Source: Candidatus Bathyarchaeum sp. (GTDB taxonomy: Archaea; Thermoproteota; Bathyarchaeia; Bathyarchaeales; Bathyarchaeaceae). Taken from it: a stretch of DNA of 64,000 nt. Positions 33 through 59,500 of the stretch are shown piece after piece. Position 1 is the first letter of the stretch. Each line of letters opens with the position of its first letter. Under the pieces are notes generated by a model that saw only the letters and a list, made by a program, of their open reading frames with translations, ran no database searches and was not told the DNA's origin. Location of the stretch: contig JAOZIF010000136.1 of NCBI GenBank assembly GCA_026014495.1, positions 3,886-67,885 on the forward strand, in the 5' to 3' direction. A program made the position numbers and the translations under genes.

Positions 33-94
33 GCCAAGCATATTAGGAGACTAATAGAGGTACATTGTTGAAAACAGTCTTTTTTATGAAAAAC
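33..94 (-). repeat. Copy R1 of a ~60-bp interspersed intergenic repeat (working consensus TTTTCTGAAAAAAGGTTGTTTTCAACAATGTACCTCTATTAGTCTCCTAATATGCTTGG)
   Basis: Reverse complement reads GTTTTTCATAAAAAAGACTGTTTTCAACAATGTACCTCTATTAGTCTCCTAATATGCTTGGCTG. 26 nt are identical to the copies at 13456 and 55151, and the last 27 nt are identical to the copy at 56051. Confidence 0.85.
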
Positions 95-134: not shown

Positions 135-476
135 TCAACTAGAACTGTATACTTTGTATCTGCGTTCACATCTTGAACAGCGCTTCAACAAATCCTCTAG
201 GCTCTTTTTTTTATCAACAAACCCCAACTTTTTCACAGACTGCCATTTCTCATCAACATCTGAGCAGTGATTGTAGCCTCTGCGCTTCATCTCTTCAACA
301 AGCTCTTCGTGACGAGCATACATGCTGTGAACTTCAAGCAGTCCCTTCTCCAAATAGCCCTTCACAGTTTTTCCGTGACACAAAGTTCCAATAAACATGT
401 GAATCTCCACATGCTCCCCCAAAAGATGCTGGCGACACATAATCTTCGGGTCTACCATCCACATTCGCATAAACAA
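135..476 (-). CDS. Pyrimidine-dimer DNA glycosylase-like protein (T4 endonuclease V / DenV-type family)
   Basis: 113-aa ORF. MRMWMVDPKIMCRQHLLGEHVEIH and RHEELVEEMKRRGYNH resemble the N-terminal and mid-protein patterns I recall for DenV-type glycosylases. Not searched. Confidence 0.5.
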   Translation of the reverse strand: MFMRMWMVDPKIMCRQHLLGEHVEIHMFIGTLCHGKTVKGYLEKGLLEVHSMYARHEELVEEMKRRGYNHCSDVDEKWQSVKKLGFVDKKKSLEDLLKRCSRCERRYKVYSSS

Positions 477-512: not shown

Positions 513-565
513 CATATATTCCCCCATAACAGAGCATTGTTGAAACACGTTTTTAGTGAAAAACC
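513..565 (-). repeat. Copy R2 (diverged) of the ~60-bp intergenic repeat
   Basis: Reverse complement reads GGTTTTTCACTAAAAACGTGTTTCAACAATGCTCTGTTATGGGGGAATATATG. The left half is conserved (TGTTTCAACAATG) and the second hairpin is disrupted. Confidence 0.6.
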
Positions 566-13455: not shown

Positions 13456-13510
13456 TTTTTTCTGAAAAAAGGTTGTTTTCAACAATGTACCTCTATTAGT
13501 ATCCTAATAG
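13456..13510 (+). repeat. Copy R3 of the ~60-bp intergenic repeat
   Basis: TTTTCTGAAAAAAGGTTGTTTTCAACAATGTACCTCTATTAG (42 nt) is identical to the copy at 55151. It is followed by TATCCTAATAG, completing a 7-bp stem CTATTAG/CTAATAG. Confidence 0.9.
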
Positions 13511-13596
13511 GGCTCTGGTTCTTTTTGGTCATTATCTGCTGTTTTGTTGGTTTGTGAGCAGTGTAACTTATAAGAAAACTTTGCATTTGGTCAAGT

Positions 13597-26348: not shown

Positions 26349-29300
26349 CTATTTCTCGGCTAATCGTTCAACCCGTGCCTTATACAAGGCGCTTGTGGCT
26401 TGATAAATGTCAAGCATTTCCTTTTTATTTAATCCTAAAATATCACAGAAGACTATTTCATCTAGTGCTTGCCTCTCCTCAAGTAAAACTTCCTCAAAAA
26501 GAGGCTTAACTTCGTGACCTGCTATCTTATCTAATGCTTGTTCCAACTTTTTAATTATTAAAGGGTTCTTCTTTTCAATTTTTTTCATATCAAGTGTTGG
26601 TACTTCTCTCAACTCGTAAATTTTAATTTCGTTAGATATTGTTTTGTCTCTATTTTCTATGTATCTACCACAAAATTCAGTAAGCAAAGCAGTAAGGGTT
26701 GAATTAAGCACAGCGCAATGAGCCTTTGCATACTTCTTATTAAAAGGGCGTATCTCGTCCAAACAATCTGTAGCATAGAAACCCAACTTGTTATAGAATA
26801 TGATGTGTCTTCCCCAATAGATACTTGGAGAAAGAATCAAACTTTTCGGTCTGCTATCCAAATCATACCAAGGCTTTCTCGAAGAGCAGGTTGGATGCTC
26901 ATGATAACCAGCATATTTTGTCGCCCTCCAAAAATGTTCCTTAGTTTCACCATACTCGATATATTCTAAGACTTTTTTTCCGCCATTTTTAAGCGCACTC
27001 TTTTTTTCTTTGCATATAAGCAAGTATCCATCTTTTTCAAGATTAGATATGCTTTTGTGGGGTCTTATTTTATTTAAGACAGGCTTGACATACTCCCATT
27101 CTATCCAAAAACGTTCTTTTTTGGTGCCTTTATCTATAAGAACTAAGAACTCGGGGGTTTCTTTTGTCTTGAAAAATCGATTTGGAAAACAAAAGAAATG
27201 GTTTGCGCCAGTTTTGATTGCATATTTAACATCAGCTACTTTTCGTAGAGGAATCACAAAATCTTTTGCTTGTTCCAATAGCTTAAAGAAAGCTGTGGGA
27301 GCTACCAAATATTTTCCCCATTTCGGATCGTTTCTAAGATCACATTGTCTAACAAGAACTATCTTAAAATCTTCATTTTCATAAAACCAGACTTTTCGAT
27401 CTAAAAATTCAGTTTCTTTAAAATCAAATAACTTCTCAGCACATTCAATACTATTTACGAATTTATCCACTTCGCTCCAACGATAAATTTCCTGAACCAT
27501 ATCACGTTCGTCAGAAATTGCTGGGACCAATTTAGAGATAGGAGATTTAAGTTGAACAAATTTAACGAGATTATCATTTCTTTCTTTTTTCTGGTTGCAC
27601 ATTTCAAGAATTGAAACACATGGAAGCATTTGAGCGTCAGGGAACCATTGTTCTTCATTTGATTCAATAATTGCTACAAGTTTACAATGGTCAAGGAAAA
27701 AATTCTTTAATGCTTTTCCATATTTCACATCAAGCCACGATCTCAATGTCACAAATCCAAGCCTACATTTGTCTTCCAAAAATTTTAAACTGTGAATGAA
27801 AAAGTAGGCGTAAATACTTGCCCTCAATGATAGATTAATATGTGGGTAGTCTTTTTGGATGGTCGCTAGTAGTGTTTCTTCCTTATAATTATGACCAAAC
27901 ACTTCTTCCAACATTTCTTCTTGACGTGTATATGGTGGGTTTCCGACAACTGCACACATTAGGGGCAACTTTTTCTCTATTACTGATTTATCTAACTTGG
28001 GAACTTGTACTACTGTTTCTTTTTTGGGGATACCATAAGCCTCCAAAGTATGCTGTACTCCAATATCTACTTGTGATCTTGGAAAAACCTCAAAGAAATC
28101 ATTGTACACTATGTTTGGATAGTTCTTTTCTACCGTCAAATCTCTTATTGCGAGATTTATTGTAGAAAGGTGAGCGGGAAACTTAGCGATATCGACTCCC
28201 CAAAGCCGTCGGAGTAAATCTTTGTGAGATATTTTGCCTTCCAAATACTTGAGTCGGTAATATGACCTTACAAGAAATGTTCCTGAACCACAGGCAGGAT
28301 CGAGTACTATATCTTGTTTATTTTTTACACAAAATCCTATAATCAAATCAACAATATCCGATCGAGTGAAATATTGACCTAAAGTATGGCGCTCTGTTGT
28401 TGGAATTATTTTCTCGAAAACTTTTCCGATAATATCGTAGCCAATGTTGGAATAATCAAGTGTTTGTAAGTAGCCAATTGTTCTAATTAATTCAGATATA
28501 GTATCACTGGGGAGAGGAATTTTATCAACAAAGTTCGTTTGAAAAACTGTTTCATAATTTCCAGATTTCTCTATACCTATGTTAAAAAATGTTTGAAGGA
28601 GCGTATAGAATGTGTCTGAAGTCAATCCTTTTGGTAAAGTAAGTTCGGGTAAAGCATATTTGACTTTAAGAACATTATAAAATAGCAATTTATTCACGAA
28701 AATATACGTATATTGTTTTGCTAAAATTATACAATATTCTTCAAGTTTTGTTTTGTTTCCTTTTGGATCGTCCCAACCATTATCCGCTAACCACACTTCG
28801 AATTTCAGTCGATAGTCTGAGTCCTCAATATATCTTGAAACAAGCTCGTTTACTAAATGCGTTGTGCTGACAATACCGTTGATGTAGTTATGCAGAACTT
28901 CCACTATGCTCTCATCTATGGGTTTTGGAGGTTCCCCTTCAAGAAATTTTGAAAACCATAAAAGAAATCTTTTGAAGGAGCCTCGAATTTCATCGGTTTT
29001 TCTGAAATATTCTTGCAGTTCTTTTACATATGTGATAGCGAACTCGGCAATTCTTTTGAGTGTTACAGCATCCCATAATACAAGAAAGTTCACATTATGA
29101 GTTGCAAAATATCTTATGTGTGGACGATAATTTTCTACATATCCTATTGTTTGCTCAATAACTTCAGGATTGTAAGGTGCATCCATTTCCTCTGGACGTT
29201 TTACTTCAATTAGAAAAAAACAGTTGTTCTTATCATCTAAGAAAAGTATATCGGCACGTTTCCTTTCCTTTACCATCTCAACTTTTACTTTTCCAAGTGG

Positions 29301-29522
29301 CAAATTATTTTCTTTTATTATTTGCCCTATCCACTCTTTCAGGTCACTCGCATAAGTTGGTTCAGTAGGCTCCCCACTCAACGCAATCCCTAGTCTATTA
29401 ATTTGTTTATAATTTATAAGCTTACAAAAAATTGGATTTTTTTTAAAAAATTCACCATCCAAAAGAAGCATGGTGGTGTGGCATTTACGCCAAAAGACAA
29501 TTTTCAGTCGATTCCCCCGCAA
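26349..29522 (-). CDS. Type IIG restriction-modification enzyme (N-terminal PD-(D/E)xK nuclease fused to a gamma-class N6-adenine DNA methyltransferase and target-recognition region)
   Basis: 1057 aa. Nuclease-like RADILFLD...FLIEVKRPE. MTase motif I VLDPACGSGTFLV and motif IV VVGNPPYTRQEE. The gene is much more AT-rich than its neighbours. The start may be an internal Met (for example 29471). Confidence 0.8.
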   Translation of the reverse strand: MRGNRLKIVFWRKCHTTMLLLDGEFFKKNPIFCKLINYKQINRLGIALSGEPTEPTYASDLKEWIGQIIKENNLPLGKVKVEMVKERKRADILFLDDKNNCFFLIEVKRPEEMDAPYNPEVIEQTIGYVENYRPHIRYFATHNVNFLVLWDAVTLKRIAEFAITYVKELQEYFRKTDEIRGSFKRFLLWFSKFLEGEPPKPIDESIVEVLHNYINGIVSTTHLVNELVSRYIEDSDYRLKFEVWLADNGWDDPKGNKTKLEEYCIILAKQYTYIFVNKLLFYNVLKVKYALPELTLPKGLTSDTFYTLLQTFFNIGIEKSGNYETVFQTNFVDKIPLPSDTISELIRTIGYLQTLDYSNIGYDIIGKVFEKIIPTTERHTLGQYFTRSDIVDLIIGFCVKNKQDIVLDPACGSGTFLVRSYYRLKYLEGKISHKDLLRRLWGVDIAKFPAHLSTINLAIRDLTVEKNYPNIVYNDFFEVFPRSQVDIGVQHTLEAYGIPKKETVVQVPKLDKSVIEKKLPLMCAVVGNPPYTRQEEMLEEVFGHNYKEETLLATIQKDYPHINLSLRASIYAYFFIHSLKFLEDKCRLGFVTLRSWLDVKYGKALKNFFLDHCKLVAIIESNEEQWFPDAQMLPCVSILEMCNQKKERNDNLVKFVQLKSPISKLVPAISDERDMVQEIYRWSEVDKFVNSIECAEKLFDFKETEFLDRKVWFYENEDFKIVLVRQCDLRNDPKWGKYLVAPTAFFKLLEQAKDFVIPLRKVADVKYAIKTGANHFFCFPNRFFKTKETPEFLVLIDKGTKKERFWIEWEYVKPVLNKIRPHKSISNLEKDGYLLICKEKKSALKNGGKKVLEYIEYGETKEHFWRATKYAGYHEHPTCSSRKPWYDLDSRPKSLILSPSIYWGRHIIFYNKLGFYATDCLDEIRPFNKKYAKAHCAVLNSTLTALLTEFCGRYIENRDKTISNEIKIYELREVPTLDMKKIEKKNPLIIKKLEQALDKIAGHEVKPLFEEVLLEERQALDEIVFCDILGLNKKEMLDIYQATSALYKARVERLAEK

Positions 29523-29888
29523 GAAGTTTTCATATTTCCTGTCCTCCTACGTGTTCCTAATATTGCAAAGAACGGGAATGTCAAGATAATATTCTCTTCA
29601 GAAAACAGTTGGGGAATGAAAGAAATCTTGATTCCATTTGAGATTGTTAAGTTAAGTCCTATTGTTTCTAAAAAATATTTACTCGTTTTTTAGCTTTGTT
29701 AACAGCCTTTTTCAGAAGCTCAGATTTGCTATTCTTGGTTTCCATAATGTATGTTCACTTCTCAAATATTTTGCTAAAAGTAAAGCTTCTTCATTTATCA
29801 GGGTTTCAAGGGTTTGTTTTTTGCCGTGTCTTATTCTTGGGCGTTTTGCTTCTGACCCCAACTTTGCGGTGTTTTTGTTGATTGTGTG

Positions 29889-30218
29889 TTATTTGTTGTT
29901 TGTTGTGAATAGTTCTAGTAATAGTTCGTAGAGTTCGTTTCCGCCTTCTATTTTGGTGAATAGTGTTTTTTCTGCGGTGAGTATTTTTTGTGCTGTGTCG
30001 CAGGTTCGTCTCCATTCTAGTTCTTTCCACATGAGCTTGTAGTTTTTGTGCTCCACCCATGCCCGAAACACCAGCACAGTAAACATTGCTACGGTAACCA
30101 AAAGATTTAGAACATAAATGCTTAGCAAATCCAACATAACCGCCTCAATATACTGTTTAGTTTCTGTAGATTCATAAGATTTATTACCGCAAAACAGAGT
30201 ATCGGTTTTTGCTCTCAC
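29889..30218 (-). CDS. Hypothetical small single-pass membrane protein upstream of the R-M gene
   Basis: 109 aa with one hydrophobic helix (LLSIYVLNLLVTVAMFTVLVF). It is on the same strand as the R-M gene and inside the AT-rich island. No family recognised. Confidence 0.35.
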   Translation of the reverse strand: MRAKTDTLFCGNKSYESTETKQYIEAVMLDLLSIYVLNLLVTVAMFTVLVFRAWVEHKNYKLMWKELEWRRTCDTAQKILTAEKTLFTKIEGGNELYELLLELFTTNNK

Positions 30219-30376
30219 CGAGATGAAACCTGCGCTGCACGCATAAATCCCATTTCATGTATCATCTCAACGCGAGATATCCAAAATTTGATTATATTGG
30301 GTAGCGTGGTACAGGCTCCGGTGAGAGCACAACTTTACATTCAATTTAACACCCGAAATAAAGAGACTCATACGCC

Positions 30377-30436
30377 TCAAGCATATTAGGAGACTAATAG
30401 CAGAATATTGTTGAAAACTAGCTTTTCTGAAATTTT
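30377..30436 (-). repeat. Copy R5 of the ~60-bp intergenic repeat (right border of the R-M island, inverted relative to R4)
   Basis: Reverse complement reads AAAATTTCAGAAAAGCTAGTTTTCAACAATATTCTGCTATTAGTCTCCTAATATGCTTGAGG. It ends 2 nt from the ThiF/MoeB stop codon. Confidence 0.85.
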
Positions 30437-55150: not shown

Positions 55151-55207
55151 GTTTTCTGAAAAAAGGTTGTTTTCAACAATGTACCTCTATTAGACTACAA
55201 ATATGTG
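55151..55207 (+). repeat. Copy R6 of the ~60-bp intergenic repeat
   Basis: GTTTTCTGAAAAAAGGTTGTTTTCAACAATGTACCTCTATTAGACTACAAATATGTG. 42 nt are identical to R3. It lies 37 nt after the DUF3795-fusion stop and 5 nt before the TIR-like gene stop. Confidence 0.9.
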
Positions 55208-55212
55208 TGGTT

Positions 55213-55986
55213 CTATAGCCATCCTAGTTTGTTTGCGTCGACGTCAAAGTTGGCAGCTTTTAGTTCTTTGATTAGTTTAAGGTACCATCCCGTTTTGTAT
55301 TCTATCCAGAGAATTTGGTTGTCTTGGTTTGGGATTTTGAAGTCTTTGGTTTTCTGGTAAATTGCAGCCACGTTTTGGGGTCCAAGGTGTCCTAGAAAGT
55401 AGCCTAGTTCAAAGATGCTGTTTTGGTTTGCTTGAGTTTTTGCTTCTTGCGGAGTTTTTTCTTTTGGGTACACCCGATTGTCTGGGGACAAAAGGACTAC
55501 TGCAAAGGAGACGTGCGGGTTTTCGTTTATTGTTTTGGTTATTGTTTGTTGTTCGTGTACGATTATGGGGTCAAGGTCTAGTTTTTGCAGTGTTTGGGTT
55601 ACGTCTGTTTTCATTGTTGGGTCGTTTCCGTGGACGAGAAAGATTTTGTTTGACCTGACTTGGTTGTTGATTTTTTTGTTTCCCGTGGGTGGAGCTAGGA
55701 GTAGCTTTACTTTTTGTAGCAGAATATTTGATGCGTTGGCGACTTCTCTTAGTTTTGCTTGTTCTTGTTTGGTGAAGCCTGAATCGAATGTTTGTTCGCT
55801 GAAGGGGACTGGTTCGATGGGTTTTAGTTCTTTGTAGAAGCCTAGGGCTTGTATGTCGTTTAGTATTTTGTTGTATGTGTTTACGTAGTTTTCGTAGCTG
55901 CTCCAGAATTTTTCAGAAAAGTCTTCTTTTGAGCTATACGCAAGTGTTTCTAATTCTATTATTAGCGAACCAAAATCTATCGCCAT
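55213..55986 (-). CDS. TIR-like domain protein (COG4271/PF10137-type nucleotide-binding TIR-like domain) with an unknown helical N-terminal domain
   Basis: 257 aa. KIFLVHGNDPTMKTDVTQTLQKLDLDPIIVHEQ, FAVVLLSPDN and QNSIFELGYFLGHLG match the remembered signature of the Cap12/PycTIR-type TIR-like domain. Confidence 0.65.
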   Translation of the reverse strand: MAIDFGSLIIELETLAYSSKEDFSEKFWSSYENYVNTYNKILNDIQALGFYKELKPIEPVPFSEQTFDSGFTKQEQAKLREVANASNILLQKVKLLLAPPTGNKKINNQVRSNKIFLVHGNDPTMKTDVTQTLQKLDLDPIIVHEQQTITKTINENPHVSFAVVLLSPDNRVYPKEKTPQEAKTQANQNSIFELGYFLGHLGPQNVAAIYQKTKDFKIPNQDNQILWIEYKTGWYLKLIKELKAANFDVDANKLGWL

Positions 55987-56050
55987 CTATCTAACCCATT
56001 TAGAATTGGTTTGCTCACCTGTATATTCGTATCTTTTTGGTGCTGCTACC

Positions 56051-56113
56051 TTTTTCTGGAAAAAGGTTTTTTTCAACAATGTTCTGCTATTAGTCTCCTA
56101 ATATGCTTGGCTG
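56051..56113 (+). repeat. Copy R7 of the ~60-bp intergenic repeat
   Basis: TTTTTCTGGAAAAAGGTTTTTTTCAACAATGTTCTGCTATTAGTCTCCTAATATGCTTGGCTG. The last 27 nt are identical to R1. Confidence 0.9.
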
Positions 56114-56904: not shown

Positions 56905-57651
56905 GTGGAACTTGGTGGAACGGGCAAGACAACGGAAATCTATCCACGTGTAACAAAAAAATTCCCTGAACTCACTAATGATGATTTAGCCGAAGTTTAT
57001 CTGAATGGAGAATCCAAGTGGATAAATCGTATCCGATGGGTGAGACAAAATCTTACGGCTAAAGGTGAGATAGATAGTCCAAGCAGGGGCGTTTGGGGGA
57101 TTACTGATAAGGGTAGAAAACGTGTGGAAACAAAAGAGTCCACAGAGACTGTAATTAATTTTTTTGAGTTATATGAAGAATATGAAACAGGGTTCCGTTC
57201 GCAACTGCTTGATAAGTTGCATGAACTTTCTCCTCGTCAATTTGAAATATTCTCACGGAAATTGCTTCAGGCTTACGGTTTTGTTCAGGTTAACGTAACA
57301 AACCTGTCATCAGACGGAGGTATTGATGGGTATGGAAAACTTCGATTAGGTCTTGCAACTATGAATGTGGCGTTCCAATGTAAACGATGGCAAGGTAACA
57401 TAGGACGACCAGAAGTAGACAAATTCAGAGGAGCAATACAAGGTGAGTTTGAACAAGGCGTTTTTCTTGTAACATCAGACTTTACAGAACAAGCCCGGAA
57501 TGTATCATTGAAAAAAGGAGCAGTTCCAATAATTCTACTAAACGGCGTAAGCATCGTTAATCTAATGATGCAAAAAGGAATTGGAGTAGAACGTGTTCCG
57601 TTGTATCTGCACTATGAACGGCCATCTGATTTTGTAGAAGAAATAGAGTGA
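56905..57651 (+). CDS. mrr: Mrr-family restriction endonuclease (Mrr_N winged helix plus Mrr_cat PD-(D/E)xK)
   Basis: SSDGGIDGYGKLRLGLATMNVAFQCKRWQGNIGRPEVDKFRGA and GVFLVTSDFTEQA form the Mrr catalytic core. The N-terminal-domain residues FPNQKDVEVPILEVLV are encoded in frame upstream of GTG 56905, back to the stop at 56845. Confidence 0.8.
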   Translation: MELGGTGKTTEIYPRVTKKFPELTNDDLAEVYLNGESKWINRIRWVRQNLTAKGEIDSPSRGVWGITDKGRKRVETKESTETVINFFELYEEYETGFRSQLLDKLHELSPRQFEIFSRKLLQAYGFVQVNVTNLSSDGGIDGYGKLRLGLATMNVAFQCKRWQGNIGRPEVDKFRGAIQGEFEQGVFLVTSDFTEQARNVSLKKGAVPIILLNGVSIVNLMMQKGIGVERVPLYLHYERPSDFVEEIE

Positions 57652-57697: not shown

Positions 57698-59500
57698 TTA
57701 TTTGCATTTTGGCTCTTCTGGGTTCGTTAGTATTGCTCTTATTCTTCTGACGCCTGCTGCTATGCCTTTTTGTTTTGTTATTTTGAAGACCCCTAACTCT
57801 TTGGTGTTGTTGACGTGGGGTCCGCCACAAATTTCTGTTGAGAACTTTCCTACCTTGTAAACTGACACTGTATTGCCGTACTTGTCATCAAACACTGCCT
57901 GTGCGCCCCTAGTTTTTGCTTCTTCAACAGTCATCTCTTCCCTGACTACAGGCAAAGAACACCTTATTTGCTTATTAACCAAGTCTTCAACCGCAGCTAG
58001 TTCTTCAGGTGACAAAGCTCTATCAAAATTAAAGTCAAAACGCAGCCTCTCTGGAGTAATATTTGAGCCCCGTTGAACAATATCGTTCTTTTTCAGTACC
58101 ACCCGCAAAGCCTCATTTAGCAGATGAGTTGCGGTGTGAAGTTTTTTAGTTTCAATCGACGCGTCACTCAAACCGCCTTTGAACAGCTTTTTTGCACTCG
58201 CAGCCGAAACTTTTTGATGCTGTTCATACTCGTTTCTGAAGCCTGCTTCATCAACTTCAATGCCTTTTTCTGCAGCAAGCTCCTGTGTTAATTCTATAGG
58301 AAATCCAAAGCTCTGAAACAGCAAAAACGCGTTTCTTCCATCAATTGTTGCACTGTTTTCTGCTATTCGATGGAATTTTCTTAAACCTTTTTCCAGAGTG
58401 TTCTTGAACTTGGTTTCTTCTTTGCGTAACTCTGCAAATATGCTGGCTTGTTTTTCTTTAAGCAGTGGATAGTCGAATTCGTTAAGATTTATCACGACTT
58501 CAGCAACATCGTTTAGGAAGTCTTTTTCAATTCCAATTAACCGCCCAAACCTTATTGCACGCCTGATTAACCGCCGCAAAACATAGCCCCTGTCAAGGTT
58601 GCTAGGCTTAACGCCCCGTTCGTCCCCCAAAAAGAACACTGAAGCGCGGATGTGGTCGGCGATAATTCTAATCGAACGCTCTTCAGTATCGGTTGGAACA
58701 CTAATGCCCGCAAGTTCTTCCACAGTTTTTGCTATTGGACGAACTGCTCCAATCTGAAAAACGTGCTCCTTGCCCTCAAGCATTGCAGCAGTGTGCTCTA
58801 CACCCATTCCAGTGTCAACGTTCTTTTGTTTTAAGAACTCATAACAACCCGCAGGTGTTTTGTTATACTCCATGAAAACGTCGTTCCAGAGCTCAAAATA
58901 TTTACCACAAGAACAACCCGGTCTACAAGATGGGCTGCATGCTGGTTTTCCAGTATCGTAGAACATTTCAGTACAAGGCCCACAAGGTCCTGTGTTACCA
59001 ACTGGTCCCCACCAATTATCTTCCTTGCCCAAAAAGAAGATATGCTCATCAGGAACCCCTGCACTGCTCCATGCCTCAAAACTTTCGTTGTCTTTTGGAG
59101 CATCTTTATCTCCTGCGAACACGGTCACAGACAACCGTTTCCTGTCTAAGTTAAGCCACCTTTTGTTTGTGAGAAAGTCGTAACTCAGGCTGACGGCTTC
59201 TTTTTTAAAGTAGTCACCCAAAGACCAACTACCCAACATTTCAAAAAACGTCAAATGAGAACTGTCTCCAACACATTCGATGTCTCCGGTTCTGAAACAT
59301 CTTTGAACGTTTGCAAGTTTTTTTCCAAGCGGATGAGGTTGCCCCAAAAAGTATGGTATAAGCGGATGCATACCCGCTGGAGTAAATAGAACGGTTGGGT
59401 CATATTCTGGAATAAGCGGAGAATTAGGAATTAAACTGTGCTCATTTTCACTAAAGAAGTCCAAGAACAGTTTCTTTAGTTTTTGTGAATCTATGACCAT
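57698..59500 (-). CDS. alaS: Alanyl-tRNA synthetase, short bacterial-type form (catalytic, tRNA-recognition and SAD/editing-core domains; no C-Ala domain)
   Basis: 600 aa. DPTVLFTPAGMHPLIPYFLG, RCFRTGDIE..VGDSSHLTFFEMLGSWSLGDYFK, WNDVFMEY, editing-site HTATHLL and CGGPHV. Confidence 0.8.
   Translation of the reverse strand: MVIDSQKLKKLFLDFFSENEHSLIPNSPLIPEYDPTVLFTPAGMHPLIPYFLGQPHPLGKKLANVQRCFRTGDIECVGDSSHLTFFEMLGSWSLGDYFKKEAVSLSYDFLTNKRWLNLDRKRLSVTVFAGDKDAPKDNESFEAWSSAGVPDEHIFFLGKEDNWWGPVGNTGPCGPCTEMFYDTGKPACSPSCRPGCSCGKYFELWNDVFMEYNKTPAGCYEFLKQKNVDTGMGVEHTAAMLEGKEHVFQIGAVRPIAKTVEELAGISVPTDTEERSIRIIADHIRASVFFLGDERGVKPSNLDRGYVLRRLIRRAIRFGRLIGIEKDFLNDVAEVVINLNEFDYPLLKEKQASIFAELRKEETKFKNTLEKGLRKFHRIAENSATIDGRNAFLLFQSFGFPIELTQELAAEKGIEVDEAGFRNEYEQHQKVSAASAKKLFKGGLSDASIETKKLHTATHLLNEALRVVLKKNDIVQRGSNITPERLRFDFNFDRALSPEELAAVEDLVNKQIRCSLPVVREEMTVEEAKTRGAQAVFDDKYGNTVSVYKVGKFSTEICGGPHVNNTKELGVFKITKQKGIAAGVRRIRAILTNPEEPKCK

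What the first reader, a model, noticed from the sequence alone, without database searches (positions are those of the whole stretch)
55151..56113. Orphan TIR-like effector with an unrecognised N-terminal domain, alone between two direct copies of the repeat
The only gene between repeat copies R6 and R7 is a 257-aa protein. Its stop is 5 nt from R6 and its start is 65 nt from R7.

The C-terminal ~140 aa (KIFLVHGNDPTMKTDVTQTLQKLDLDPIIVHEQ ... FAVVLLSPDN ... QNSIFELGYFLGHLG) match the signature I remember for the COG4271/PF10137 TIR-like domain used by CBASS Cap12 and Pycsar PycTIR effectors. This includes the Glu of FELGYF, the position expected for a catalytic NADase residue.

The N-terminal ~115 aa are helical and match nothing I recognise. 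No cyclase, SIR2, SLOG, STING or other signal generator or partner is adjacent.

A stand-alone TIR-like protein with a novel putative sensor domain, in an archaeon and in a cassette-like setting next to Mrr, is a candidate single-gene defence or abortive-infection module.
Basis: partly seen in the sequence, partly recalled or inferred. Interest (0 to 1): 0.68.

Follow-up and report, generated by a model that had tools for sequence, protein, structure and literature searches.

The report
Stand-alone archaeal TIR-like defence-type protein
A real 257-residue gene of a Bathyarchaeota archaeon joins an undescribed three-helix front module to a TIR-like domain of the kind bacteria use to destroy NAD+ during virus infection; it is probably a one-gene immune effector, and it comes and goes at a repeat-bounded hotspot, but its catalytic site is partly degenerate.

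Summary
The ORF is at 55213-55986 (-), 257 aa, between two direct copies of a ~57-nt repeat. Residues 114-230 match Pfam PF10137 (E=3e-20), fold like the SfSTING TIR domain, and place Glu193 on SfSTING catalytic E84. Residues 1-100 form a confident three-helix bundle with no Pfam, PADLOC, PHROG or PDB relative.

It is not an orphan: it has over 1,300 homologues, mostly from Bathyarchaeia. The C-terminal part matches the untested PADLOC single-gene candidate PDC-S35 (E=4e-42).

- **Front module.** It is reused in front of REase, PLD, Ser/Thr-kinase, WD40 and membrane domains, several of which match defence families.
- **Gene setting.** Among relatives with 80-85% identical AlaRS, the gene lies downstream of AlaRS in seven lineages (usually repeat-TIR-repeat) and is missing in five.
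- **Repeat.** It is a lineage-wide intergenic element found at synteny breakpoints, not an attC site.

Two cautions apply. About 21% of close homologues lack the Glu yet remain under purifying selection, and the Arg matching SfSTING R78 is not conserved.

Verdict: a likely single-protein defence effector, a new variant of a known kind. NADase chemistry is unproven.

The parts
55213..55986 (-). Whole ORF, 257 aa: N-module + linker + TIR-like domain + conserved tail
   Evidence: ORF list. It is 100% identical to P0001, which NCBI names 'nucleotide-binding protein' from a Candidatus Bathyarchaeota archaeon. dN/dS against orthologues is 0.07-0.25.
55687..55986 (-). N-terminal module (aa 1-100): three-helix bundle, helices 5-24, 31-47 and 73-97, with conserved EDF..FW..YE.Y..YN and AKLRE motifs
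   Evidence: AlphaFold model from a 26-sequence alignment: pLDDT 86.5, pTM 0.77. No Pfam, PADLOC, PHROG or PDB match. 34 cluster representatives carry it in front of other domains.
55297..55647 (-). TIR-like domain (aa 114-230), Cap12/PycTIR type
   Evidence: PF10137 E=3.1e-20. Best Foldseek hits are the SfSTING TIR (7un8), TIR-STING (9lmq), MyD88 TIR and SARM1. A profile of the family hits Cap12 (9lmq) and PycTIR (8jsj).
55408..55410 (-). Codon of Glu193 (FELGYF), the position of the catalytic Glu
   Evidence: Aligned to the FEFG Glu of 7un8 and 9lmq, which is SfSTING E84 (PMC9402430). This position is E in only 95 of the 120 closest homologues.
55216..55296 (-). C-terminal tail (aa 231-257), KTGWY...VDANKLGWL, the most invariant stretch of the family
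   Evidence: Invariant columns K231 G233 W234 Y235 L242 V249 D250 N252 K253 W256 in alignment A2.
55152..55210 (+). Repeat copy R6, abutting the stop codon
   Evidence: The orthologous copy is found 1-5 nt after the stop in L111, L116, L117 and L121, and likewise abutting the stop in L130 and L133.
56052..56110 (+). Repeat copy R7, 65 nt upstream of the ATG
   Evidence: An orthologous copy lies about 65-70 nt upstream of the ATG in L111, L116, L117, L121, L130 and L133.
56905..57651 (+). Mrr-type type IV restriction endonuclease, a neighbour in the same hotspot
   Evidence: Mrr_N + Mrr_cat; PADLOC mREase_IV / PDC-S02. It is present without the TIR gene in L134 and absent from the hotspot in all the other AlaRS-linked loci examined (L111, L116-119, L121, L128-133, L135).
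57698..59500 (-). AlaRS, the conserved anchor of the hotspot
   Evidence: 80-85% identical AlaRS flanks the TIR gene or the empty site in 12 related loci.
30378..30426 (-). Inverted repeat copy next to ThiF; with R6 it bounds a 24.7-kb segment that is inverted relative to L111
   Evidence: L111 reads TIR-R-ThiF-o104-RsmB-arginase, whereas the window reads R-ThiF-o104-RsmB-arginase at 30.4 kb.

Best explanation
The gene encodes a stand-alone, two-module protein of the defence-effector type. The C-terminal half is a Cap12/PycTIR-class TIR-like domain followed by a strongly conserved 27-residue tail. The N-terminal ~100 residues are a previously undescribed three-helix module.

The most likely mode of action is as follows. 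The N-module keeps the protein inactive and, on a virus-derived cue, drives or permits self-assembly. The assembled TIR-like domains then cleave the N-glycosidic bond of NAD+ or a related nucleotide, which arrests the infected cell.

The gene is accessory. It occupies a hotspot downstream of AlaRS bounded by copies of a lineage-specific 57-nt intergenic repeat, and it is present in some close relatives and absent in others.

Shown here: domain identity, fold, alignment of the Glu, reuse of both modules with other partners, presence/absence at the hotspot, and purifying selection.

Inferred only: the defence role, the trigger, oligomerisation, and the NADase chemistry.
For: - **Domain and fold.** PF10137 well above threshold. 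TIR fold with the SfSTING TIR as best structural match. Glu193 aligns with SfSTING catalytic E84; F116 and N189 align with the SfSTING pocket residues F6 and N80.
- **Match to a defence candidate.** PADLOC PDC-S35 at E=3.8e-42. PDC systems are single- or multi-gene candidates predicted because they are embedded in RM, BREX or DISARM loci (10.1101/2024.01.29.577857).
- **N-module reuse.** The N-module alone finds 34 cluster representatives in which it precedes DpnII-MboI REase, PLD, PD-(D/E)xK, Ser/Thr kinase, WD40 or membrane segments. Those partner domains hit Aga_Helical-REase, PDC-S05, PDC-S54 and PD-T4-6.
- **TIR-module reuse.** The TIR-like module of the related protein P0126 is 70-76% identical across proteins that carry many different N-termini.
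- **Accessory status.** Downstream of 80-85% identical AlaRS genes, the TIR gene is present in the window, L111, L116-119, L121, L128, L130 and L133, and absent in L129, L131, L132, L134 and L135. TIR identity (60-74%) does not track AlaRS identity.
- **Defence and mobile neighbours.** Mrr here; integrases, PLD nucleases and DUF6602 in L002; a HEPN-like protein in L003.
- **Viral relatives.** The TIR-like module also matches a phage protein family, phrog_16442.
- **Real gene.** dN/dS is 0.07-0.37.
Against: - No member of this clade or of PDC-S35 has been tested, as far as the searchable literature shows.
- The active site looks relaxed. The Glu is replaced by T, A, Q, K, D or I in 25 of 120 close homologues, including orthologues at the same locus (L121 has A, L133 has T). 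These remain under purifying selection (omega 0.15).
- The Arg matching SfSTING R78 is not conserved in this clade. The bacterial-type subfamily keeps (A/S)RxNVIFExG in 108 of the 108 sequences where the motif was found.
- The strongest conservation lies in the N-module and the C-terminal tail, not in the catalytic pocket.
- Most homologues are flanked by housekeeping genes such as AlaRS, LeuRS, ThiF and an oxidoreductase.
- The N-module is not represented in PADLOC, so the PDC-S35 match rests on the C-terminal half.
Confidence: 0.5

Rival explanations
1. The TIR-like domain in this archaeal clade is no longer, or not mainly, an NADase. It acts as a scaffold, a nucleotide-binding module or an enzyme with a different substrate. 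The selected function resides in interactions made by the N-module and the conserved C-terminal tail.
For: The Glu is missing in 21% of close homologues, and these are still under purifying selection. The R78-equivalent Arg is lost. The invariant residues concentrate in the N-module, the VRSN linker and the tail. Non-catalytic TIR domains such as MyD88 are among the structural matches.
Against: The window protein itself keeps the Glu, the F6 and N80 equivalents and the FELG..G..G helix. 79% of the clade keeps the Glu. The partner domains of the N-module are mostly catalytic effectors.
Confidence: 0.25
2. It is the effector arm of a signalling immune pathway (CBASS, Pycsar or Thoeris-like) whose signal generator is encoded elsewhere in the genome. 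In this reading the N-module is the ligand receptor.
For: The closest solved relatives, Cap12 and PycTIR, are ligand-activated effectors. Only 64 kb of the genome could be inspected.
Against: No cyclase, CD-NTase or ThsB/ThsA-type partner occurs in any of the roughly 12 distinct neighbourhoods examined. A 100-residue three-helix bundle resembles no known cyclic-nucleotide receptor such as STING, SAVED, CARF or cNMP-binding domains. The NCBIfam Cap12 equivalog score is 21.9 against a cut-off of 450.
Confidence: 0.08
3. It is a lineage-specific housekeeping or regulatory gene functionally tied to the AlaRS and ribosomal-protein cluster, not an immune gene.
For: It holds the same position and orientation downstream of Spt5-L11-L1-L10-P1-AlaRS in seven lineages whose AlaRS is 80-85% identical. 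Few defence neighbours are present.
Against: It is absent from five equally close relatives at that very site. It occurs in unrelated contexts elsewhere. It is separated from AlaRS by the repeat, and here by Mrr on the opposite strand. It evolves faster than its neighbours, and its divergence does not follow theirs.
Confidence: 0.07

Closest known systems
PADLOC PDC-S35 (single-gene 'phage defence candidate', Payne et al. 2024 preprint)
   Same: A stand-alone protein with a PF10137-type TIR-like C-terminal half and a helical N-terminal part. The HMM match is E=3.8e-42 over aa 29-254. Both are candidates only; neither has been tested.
   Different: The N-module on its own matches no PADLOC model, so the front half differs. 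This is an archaeal clade with a relaxed catalytic motif. PDC-S35 was defined from bacterial RefSeq genomes by its embedding in RM, BREX or DISARM loci, whereas this gene is embedded among housekeeping genes.
CBASS Cap12 (TIR-STING, e.g. SfSTING, PDB 7un8/9lmq)
   Same: The same TIR-like domain family and fold, and the same FExG catalytic-Glu helix. Activity in SfSTING depends on filament assembly, the model proposed here.
   Different: There is no STING domain and no CD-NTase operon. The order is N-module then TIR, instead of TIR then STING. The R78 equivalent is missing. The NCBIfam Cap12 score is far below its cut-off.
Pycsar PycTIR (PDB 8jsj)
   Same: The same domain order: an N-terminal regulatory domain followed by a C-terminal TIR-like domain. 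The alignment extends into the Y(K/R)TG segment after the domain. There is also a PADLOC PycTIR hit at E=2.3e-7.
   Different: No cNMP-binding domain and no pyrimidine cyclase gene nearby.
Modular single-protein defence systems with interchangeable effectors (e.g. the PD-T4-6 kinase, PDC-S05 PLD, PDC-S54 REase)
   Same: The N-module found here precedes domains that match these families. This is the constant-module, variable-effector pattern typical of immune proteins.
   Different: Those families as modelled in PADLOC do not contain this N-module. Whether proteins carrying the N-module defend against viruses is unknown.
Integron gene cassettes (attC) and Xer/dif-bounded modules (recalled from general knowledge; not retrieved in the literature searches here)
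   Same: Single accessory genes are bracketed by copies of a short conserved site. Presence/absence and rearrangements have their breakpoints at those sites.
   Different: RNAalifold finds no conserved hairpin. No R''/R' complementarity was seen on reading the consensus sequence. No integrase lies nearby, and no recombinase family is enriched near 107 copies. The copies are scattered between housekeeping blocks rather than arranged in an array, and they have no fixed orientation relative to the genes.

Membership tests
Pfam PF10137 CAP12/PycTIR TIR-like domain | Profile score above the curated gathering threshold | tested here: met
   72.8 bits against 24.7, E=3.1e-20, aa 114-230 covering profile positions 1-117 of 119.
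Pfam PF10137 CAP12/PycTIR TIR-like domain | TIR (flavodoxin-like) fold | tested here: met
   AlphaFold model with TIR-part pLDDT of about 80-87. Best Foldseek matches are the SfSTING TIR (E=2e-5), TIR-STING 9lmq, MyD88 TIR and SARM1.
Pfam PF10137 CAP12/PycTIR TIR-like domain | Catalytic Glu in the alpha-C helix (FExG) | tested here: met
   Glu193 aligns with the Glu of 9lmq, 7un8 and 8jsj, which is SfSTING E84. Caveat: 25 of 120 close homologues have T, A, Q, K, D or I at this position.
Pfam PF10137 CAP12/PycTIR TIR-like domain | Remaining NAD+ pocket residues (SfSTING F6, S10, R78, N80, D110) | tested here: inconclusive
   F116 (equivalent to F6) is invariant and N189 (equivalent to N80) is mostly kept. 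The R78 equivalent is N187 here and varies across the clade. The PxD motif is shifted, reading PNQD.
Pfam PF10137 CAP12/PycTIR TIR-like domain | NAD+ glycohydrolase activity | not testable with these tools
   Requires an enzyme assay.
CBASS Cap12 / Pycsar PycTIR effectors | Fused ligand-sensing domain (STING, SAVED or cNMP-binding) | tested here: not met
   The N-terminal 113 aa have no Pfam hit. They are modelled as a three-helix bundle with no significant PDB match.
CBASS Cap12 / Pycsar PycTIR effectors | Operon with a CD-NTase or a pyrimidine cyclase | tested here: not met
   The neighbours are a DUF3795 protein, GluRS, a membrane protein, Mrr and AlaRS. No cyclase occurs in any homologue locus.
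CBASS Cap12 / Pycsar PycTIR effectors | NCBIfam equivalog cut-off for Cap12 | tested here: not met
   21.9 and 17.9 bits against a cut-off of 450.
PADLOC PDC-S35 | Match to the PDC-S35 HMMs as a single gene | tested here: met
   Five models at E=3.8e-42 to 5.5e-27. No partner gene is conserved. The N-module alone gives no PADLOC hit.
PADLOC PDC-S35 | Demonstrated anti-virus activity | not testable with these tools
   PDC systems are predictions. No paper mentioning PDC-S35 was found.
Thoeris (ThsB signal producer) | TIR gene in an operon with a ThsA-type or other effector | tested here: not met
   No such neighbour occurs in the window or in related loci.
Effector-associated adaptor domains (paired with an NTPase carrying the same domain) | A second protein with the same N-module, typically a STAND or other NTPase, nearby | tested here: not met
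   A profile of the N-module finds only the TIR or REase gene itself in the window and in all loci. None of the 20 cluster representatives scanned against Pfam carries an NTPase domain. The rest of the genome was not visible.
Integron gene cassette | attC hairpin with complementary R''/R' boxes, an array next to intI | tested here: not met
   No consensus structure on either strand in 134 copies. No Rfam hit. The copies are dispersed and in either orientation. No recombinase is enriched nearby.

The most novel reading that the evidence does not exclude
Two linked claims. First, the N-terminal three-helix module is a new, widely reused control domain (sensor or assembly switch) that defines a family of single-protein immune systems with interchangeable effectors: TIR-like, REase, PLD, kinase and membrane. 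Second, the 57-nt repeats are the crossover sites of an undescribed exchange mechanism in Bathyarchaeia that lacks both a hairpin and a nearby integrase. That mechanism would insert, delete and shuffle defence genes and whole gene blocks.
Probability: 0.15. Interest if true: 0.8.

Novelty: new variant of a known kind. Interest (0 to 1): 0.5.

Why it matters
- **Archaeal immunity.** Stand-alone TIR-like proteins are routinely set aside in defence surveys as presumed NAD+-depleting effectors, and those in archaea are essentially unstudied. This locus offers a compact archaeal example.
- **A handle on activation.** The front module recurs in front of at least five other effector classes. That gives a way to ask how single-protein systems are switched on.
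- **A natural experiment on the Glu.** Glu-containing and Glu-less orthologues sit at one locus and are both under purifying selection. They test whether the catalytic Glu is needed for the selected function.
- **The repeat.** The repeat-bounded hotspot, and the finding that relatives differ by rearrangements ending exactly at repeat copies, point to an unexplained mechanism of genome plasticity in a major uncultured archaeal lineage.

Tried and rejected
- **Integron attC reading of the repeat.** Rejected. There is no conserved hairpin, no Rfam hit and no array or integrase.
- **Terminator or promoter reading of the repeat.** Not supported. Convergent, divergent and tandem intergenic classes are hit 30, 26 and 48 times, about what random placement gives.
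- **C/D-box or CRISPR-repeat reading.** Considered from the sequence alone. No C or D boxes are present, the spacing does not fit an array, and nothing was found in Rfam.
- **Paired-adaptor model for the N-module.** No second copy was found nearby.
- **DUF3795 link.** A DUF3795 gene lies near both the TIR gene here and the N-module-REase operon, but the proteins are unrelated beyond the Cys motif. The REase-operon partners have no homologue in TIR loci.
- **Viral carriage.** No relative was found in IMG/VR by the pattern scan. The TIR-like part does match phrog_16442.
- **Fold search of the N-module.** Only generic helical bundles were found, best E=0.45.
- **Literature searches that returned nothing useful.** PDC-S35, COG4271, and integrons in Bathyarchaeota.
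- **Exact look-up of the window protein in the contig index.** It failed.
Full report
**1. The observation**

The region holds one long ORF, 55213..55986 on the minus strand, 257 aa. It lies between two direct copies of a ~57-nt repeat at 55152-55210 and 56052-56110. The repeat core occurs six times in the window against 0.16 expected by chance. A profile search adds a partial seventh copy at 526-562.

The stop codon lies within 2-7 nt of R6, and the ATG is 65 nt from R7. No tRNA and no Rfam family is present.

The protein is identical to an NCBI entry from a Candidatus Bathyarchaeota MAG, annotated 'nucleotide-binding protein'.

**2. The C-terminal half**

Residues 114-230 match Pfam PF10137 (CAP12/Pycsar effector TIR domain) at E=3.1e-20, 72.8 bits against a cut-off of 24.7.

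A profile of 30 family members hits the solved Cap12 (9lmq, 7un8) and PycTIR (8jsj) chains. The FELG motif lies on their FEFG/LEFG motif. A single-sequence alignment to 7un8 gives the same register.

The SfSTING paper names E84 as the catalytic residue. It lists F6, W33, F37, L47, S10, R78, N80 and D110 as the NAD+ pocket (PMC9402430). Allowing for the eight-residue offset of the deposited chain:
- Glu193 corresponds to E84.
- N189 corresponds to N80.
- F116 corresponds to F6.
- N187 stands where R78 should be.

The AlphaFold model (pLDDT 71.9 overall, about 80-87 in the TIR part) finds the SfSTING TIR, TIR-STING, MyD88 TIR and SARM1 as its best PDB matches.

It is not a Cap12 or PycTIR orthologue. 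The NCBIfam Cap12 equivalog scores are 22 and 18 bits against a cut-off of 450, and there is no sensing domain or cyclase.

**3. The N-terminal half**

Residues 1-113 have no Pfam hit even at E<=1, no PADLOC hit, no PHROG hit and no PDB sequence match.

With a diverse 26-sequence alignment the module folds confidently as a three-helix bundle, pLDDT 86.5 and pTM 0.77, with helices at 5-24, 31-47 and 73-97. Foldseek against PDB finds only generic bundles, best E=0.45.

Searching the N-module alone against 1.8 billion cluster representatives gave 34 hits. In these proteins the module precedes:
- the PF10137 TIR-like domain;
- the DpnII-MboI REase domain (seven representatives);
- a PLD-like domain;
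- a PD-(D/E)xK domain;
- a Ser/Thr kinase;
- a WD40 propeller;
- membrane or unknown C-termini.

Those partner domains match the PADLOC families Aga_Helical-REase, PDC-S05, PDC-S54 and PD-T4-6.

The reverse also holds. The TIR-like module of the related protein P0126 is 70-76% identical across proteins with many unrelated N-termini, several from bacteria. Both halves of the window protein are therefore mix-and-match modules, the usual signature of immune proteins.

No second protein with the N-module lies near any copy. This argues against a paired-adaptor arrangement, at least locally.

**4. Relation to catalogued systems**

The whole protein hits five PADLOC PDC-S35 models, best E=3.8e-42 over aa 29-254. 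PDC systems are 145 single- and multi-gene candidates inferred from being embedded in BREX, DISARM or type I RM loci. They are predictions, not tested systems (10.1101/2024.01.29.577857). No paper mentioning PDC-S35 was found.

Because the N-module alone gives no PADLOC hit, the similarity rests on the TIR-like half and the tail. A recent survey of TIR signalling explicitly sets aside stand-alone TIR proteins as presumed NAD+-depleting effectors (10.64898/2025.12.03.692087).

**5. The family and its active site**

There are 1,336 homologues at E<=1e-3. The best 120 are full-length, 57-74% identical, and the named ones are from Bathyarchaeota.

Conservation is highest in the N-module (EDF..FW..YE.Y..YN, AKLRE), the VRSN linker and the C-terminal tail (E229, K231, G233-W-Y, V249-D-x-N-K, W256).

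The Glu is not invariant. Among the 120 it is E in 95, T in 8, A in 7, Q in 6, K in 2, D in 1 and I in 1. Orthologues at the same chromosomal site carry Ala (L121) or Thr (L133).

Pairwise dN/dS is 0.07-0.37 throughout, including Glu-less pairs (L121-L133 0.147, L130-L121 0.155). These are therefore functional genes.

In the bacterial-type subfamily around P0126, the motif (A/S)RxNVIFExG was found in 108 of the 120 listed proteins, and all 108 have the Glu and the Arg. The archaeal clade has thus relaxed two catalytic-pocket positions. NADase activity is plausible for the window protein, which keeps the Glu, but it cannot be assumed.

**6. Genomic setting**

The neighbours here are a DUF3795 protein, GluRS and GGPS on one side, and a small membrane protein, an Mrr-type type IV endonuclease and AlaRS on the other.

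Other homologues lie in varied contexts:

| Locus | Context |
|---|---|
| L001 | ABC transporter and radical SAM gene |
| L002 | An island with integrases, PLD nucleases and DUF6602 |
| L003 | A HEPN-like gene and an ammonium transporter |
| L112-115 | Unknown genes |

The closest homologues sit at the same place as in the window: downstream of Spt5-L11-L1-L10-P1-AlaRS and in the AlaRS orientation (L111, L116-119, L121).

A metagenome scan with AlaRS recovered eight more loci whose AlaRS is 81-84% identical. Three of them carry the gene (L128, L130, L133). Five do not (L129, L131, L132, L134, L135).

L134 reads AlaRS-Mrr-small ORF-repeat-repeat-MetK. This is the window arrangement without the TIR gene.

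TIR identity to the window (60-74%) does not follow AlaRS identity (80-85%). The gene is therefore accessory at a conserved hotspot. It is neither a fixed housekeeping gene nor part of a large defence island.

What flanks it on the far side differs in every lineage: LeuRS, ThiF, an oxidoreductase, or DUF3795/GluRS.

**7. The repeat**

A scan of one genome per species found the repeat core in at least 107 stretches, nearly all from Bathyarchaeia MAGs of more than ten species. A profile search finds 145 copies, of which 144 are intergenic.

Copies show no preference for convergent, divergent or tandem gene pairs (30, 26 and 48). They show no fixed orientation, and many abut or overlap stop codons. 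RNAalifold finds no consensus structure on either strand. The sequence holds an AT-rich palindrome, CTATTAG-N4-CTAATA.

No recombinase or transposase family is enriched among 603 neighbouring ORFs.

The repeat-TIR-repeat geometry (a copy 65-70 nt before the ATG and a copy 1-5 nt after the stop) recurs in the window, L111, L116-119, L121, L130 and L133.

Other accessory genes are bracketed in the same way:
- a pyrimidine-dimer glycosylase gene (135-476);
- a type IIG RM gene (26349-29522, between inverted copies);
- a glycosyltransferase in L112.

Every conserved block boundary that could be compared carries a copy (AlaRS, MetK, ThiF, GluRS, L7Ae), and the blocks are joined differently in relatives. 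One case stands out: the window differs from L111 by an inversion of 30427-55151 whose ends are the inverted copies at 30378 and 55152.

The repeat therefore marks recombination-prone junctions, but its mechanism is unknown. It is not an integron attC site.

**8. Verdict**

The best reading is a single-protein defence-type effector with confidence about 0.5. In this reading an undescribed three-helix control module is coupled to a Cap12/PycTIR-class TIR-like domain, and the protein acts by assembly-dependent cleavage of NAD+ or a related nucleotide.

The main rival (0.25) is that the TIR-like domain in this clade has a non-catalytic or altered role, given the Glu-less orthologues and the missing Arg. 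An unlinked signalling partner (0.08) and a housekeeping role tied to AlaRS (0.07) are less likely.

It is a new variant of a known kind. The effector class and the stand-alone architecture are already catalogued as an untested candidate (PDC-S35). The N-module, its reuse across effector classes, the natural Glu polymorphism and the repeat-bounded hotspot are new details.

Noticed in passing
window 35-83(-), 526-562(-), 13458-13516(+), 25935-25993(+), 30378-30426(-), 55152-55210(+), 56052-56110(+); loci L004-L110: A ~57-nt repeat (core GAAAAAA-N4-GTTTTCAACAAT-N6-CTATTAG-N4-CTAATATG) is a lineage-wide intergenic element of Bathyarchaeia, with at least 145 copies in the DNA fetched. RNAalifold predicts no consensus hairpin, there is no Rfam match, no orientation bias and no linked recombinase.
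   Followed up: partly
window 30427-55151 compared with L111:6001-10645: The window and a relative differ by a 24.7-kb inversion whose two ends are inverted copies of the repeat. L111 reads TIR-repeat-ThiF-o104-RsmB-arginase. In the window the ThiF block follows the repeat at 30.4 kb instead.
   Followed up: partly
window 25935-30426: A 1,057-aa type IIG restriction-modification enzyme (Eco57I/MmeI-like methylase domains) and a 109-aa ORF sit between inverted repeat copies. They are inserted between the MetK and ThiF blocks and are absent from the relatives L111, L131 and L134.
   Followed up: partly
window 135-476(-) with repeats at 35-83 and 526-562: A 113-aa pyrimidine-dimer DNA glycosylase (Pyr_excise, T4 endonuclease V type) is another single gene bracketed by direct repeat copies, one of them partial.
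   Followed up: no
L134:5264-6770: A relative has AlaRS-Mrr (82% identical to the window Mrr) followed by two repeat copies only 17 nt apart and then MetK. This is an 'empty' version of the repeat-TIR-repeat site.
   Followed up: partly
L123:3150-6322 (also L120, L124-L127): The REase fusion of the N-module lies in a conserved, overlapping gene string: DUF3795, a 41-aa ORF, a 361-aa unknown, N-module-DpnII/MboI REase, and (in L124-L127) a 182-aa unknown. This suggests a multi-gene system for that variant. None of the partners has a family match.
   Followed up: partly
window 57698-59500(-): The AlaRS is only 600 aa (catalytic domain plus tRNA_SAD editing domain). The metagenome scan returned 519 AlaRS relatives, and the best 80 kept align over nearly the whole 600-aa query. 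Whether this short form lacks the usual C-terminal domain was not examined.
   Followed up: no
loci L004-L110: The largest protein cluster next to repeat copies (15 members at 14 loci) is a ~950-aa protein with a hydrophobic N-terminal segment, possibly secreted or surface-located. It was not annotated.
   Followed up: no
window 55213-55986(-), aa 105-249: The TIR-like half matches a phage protein family of unknown function, phrog_16442 (E=5.6e-28). The REase partner domain matches phrog_29450. No IMG/VR relative was found by the pattern scan.
   Followed up: no
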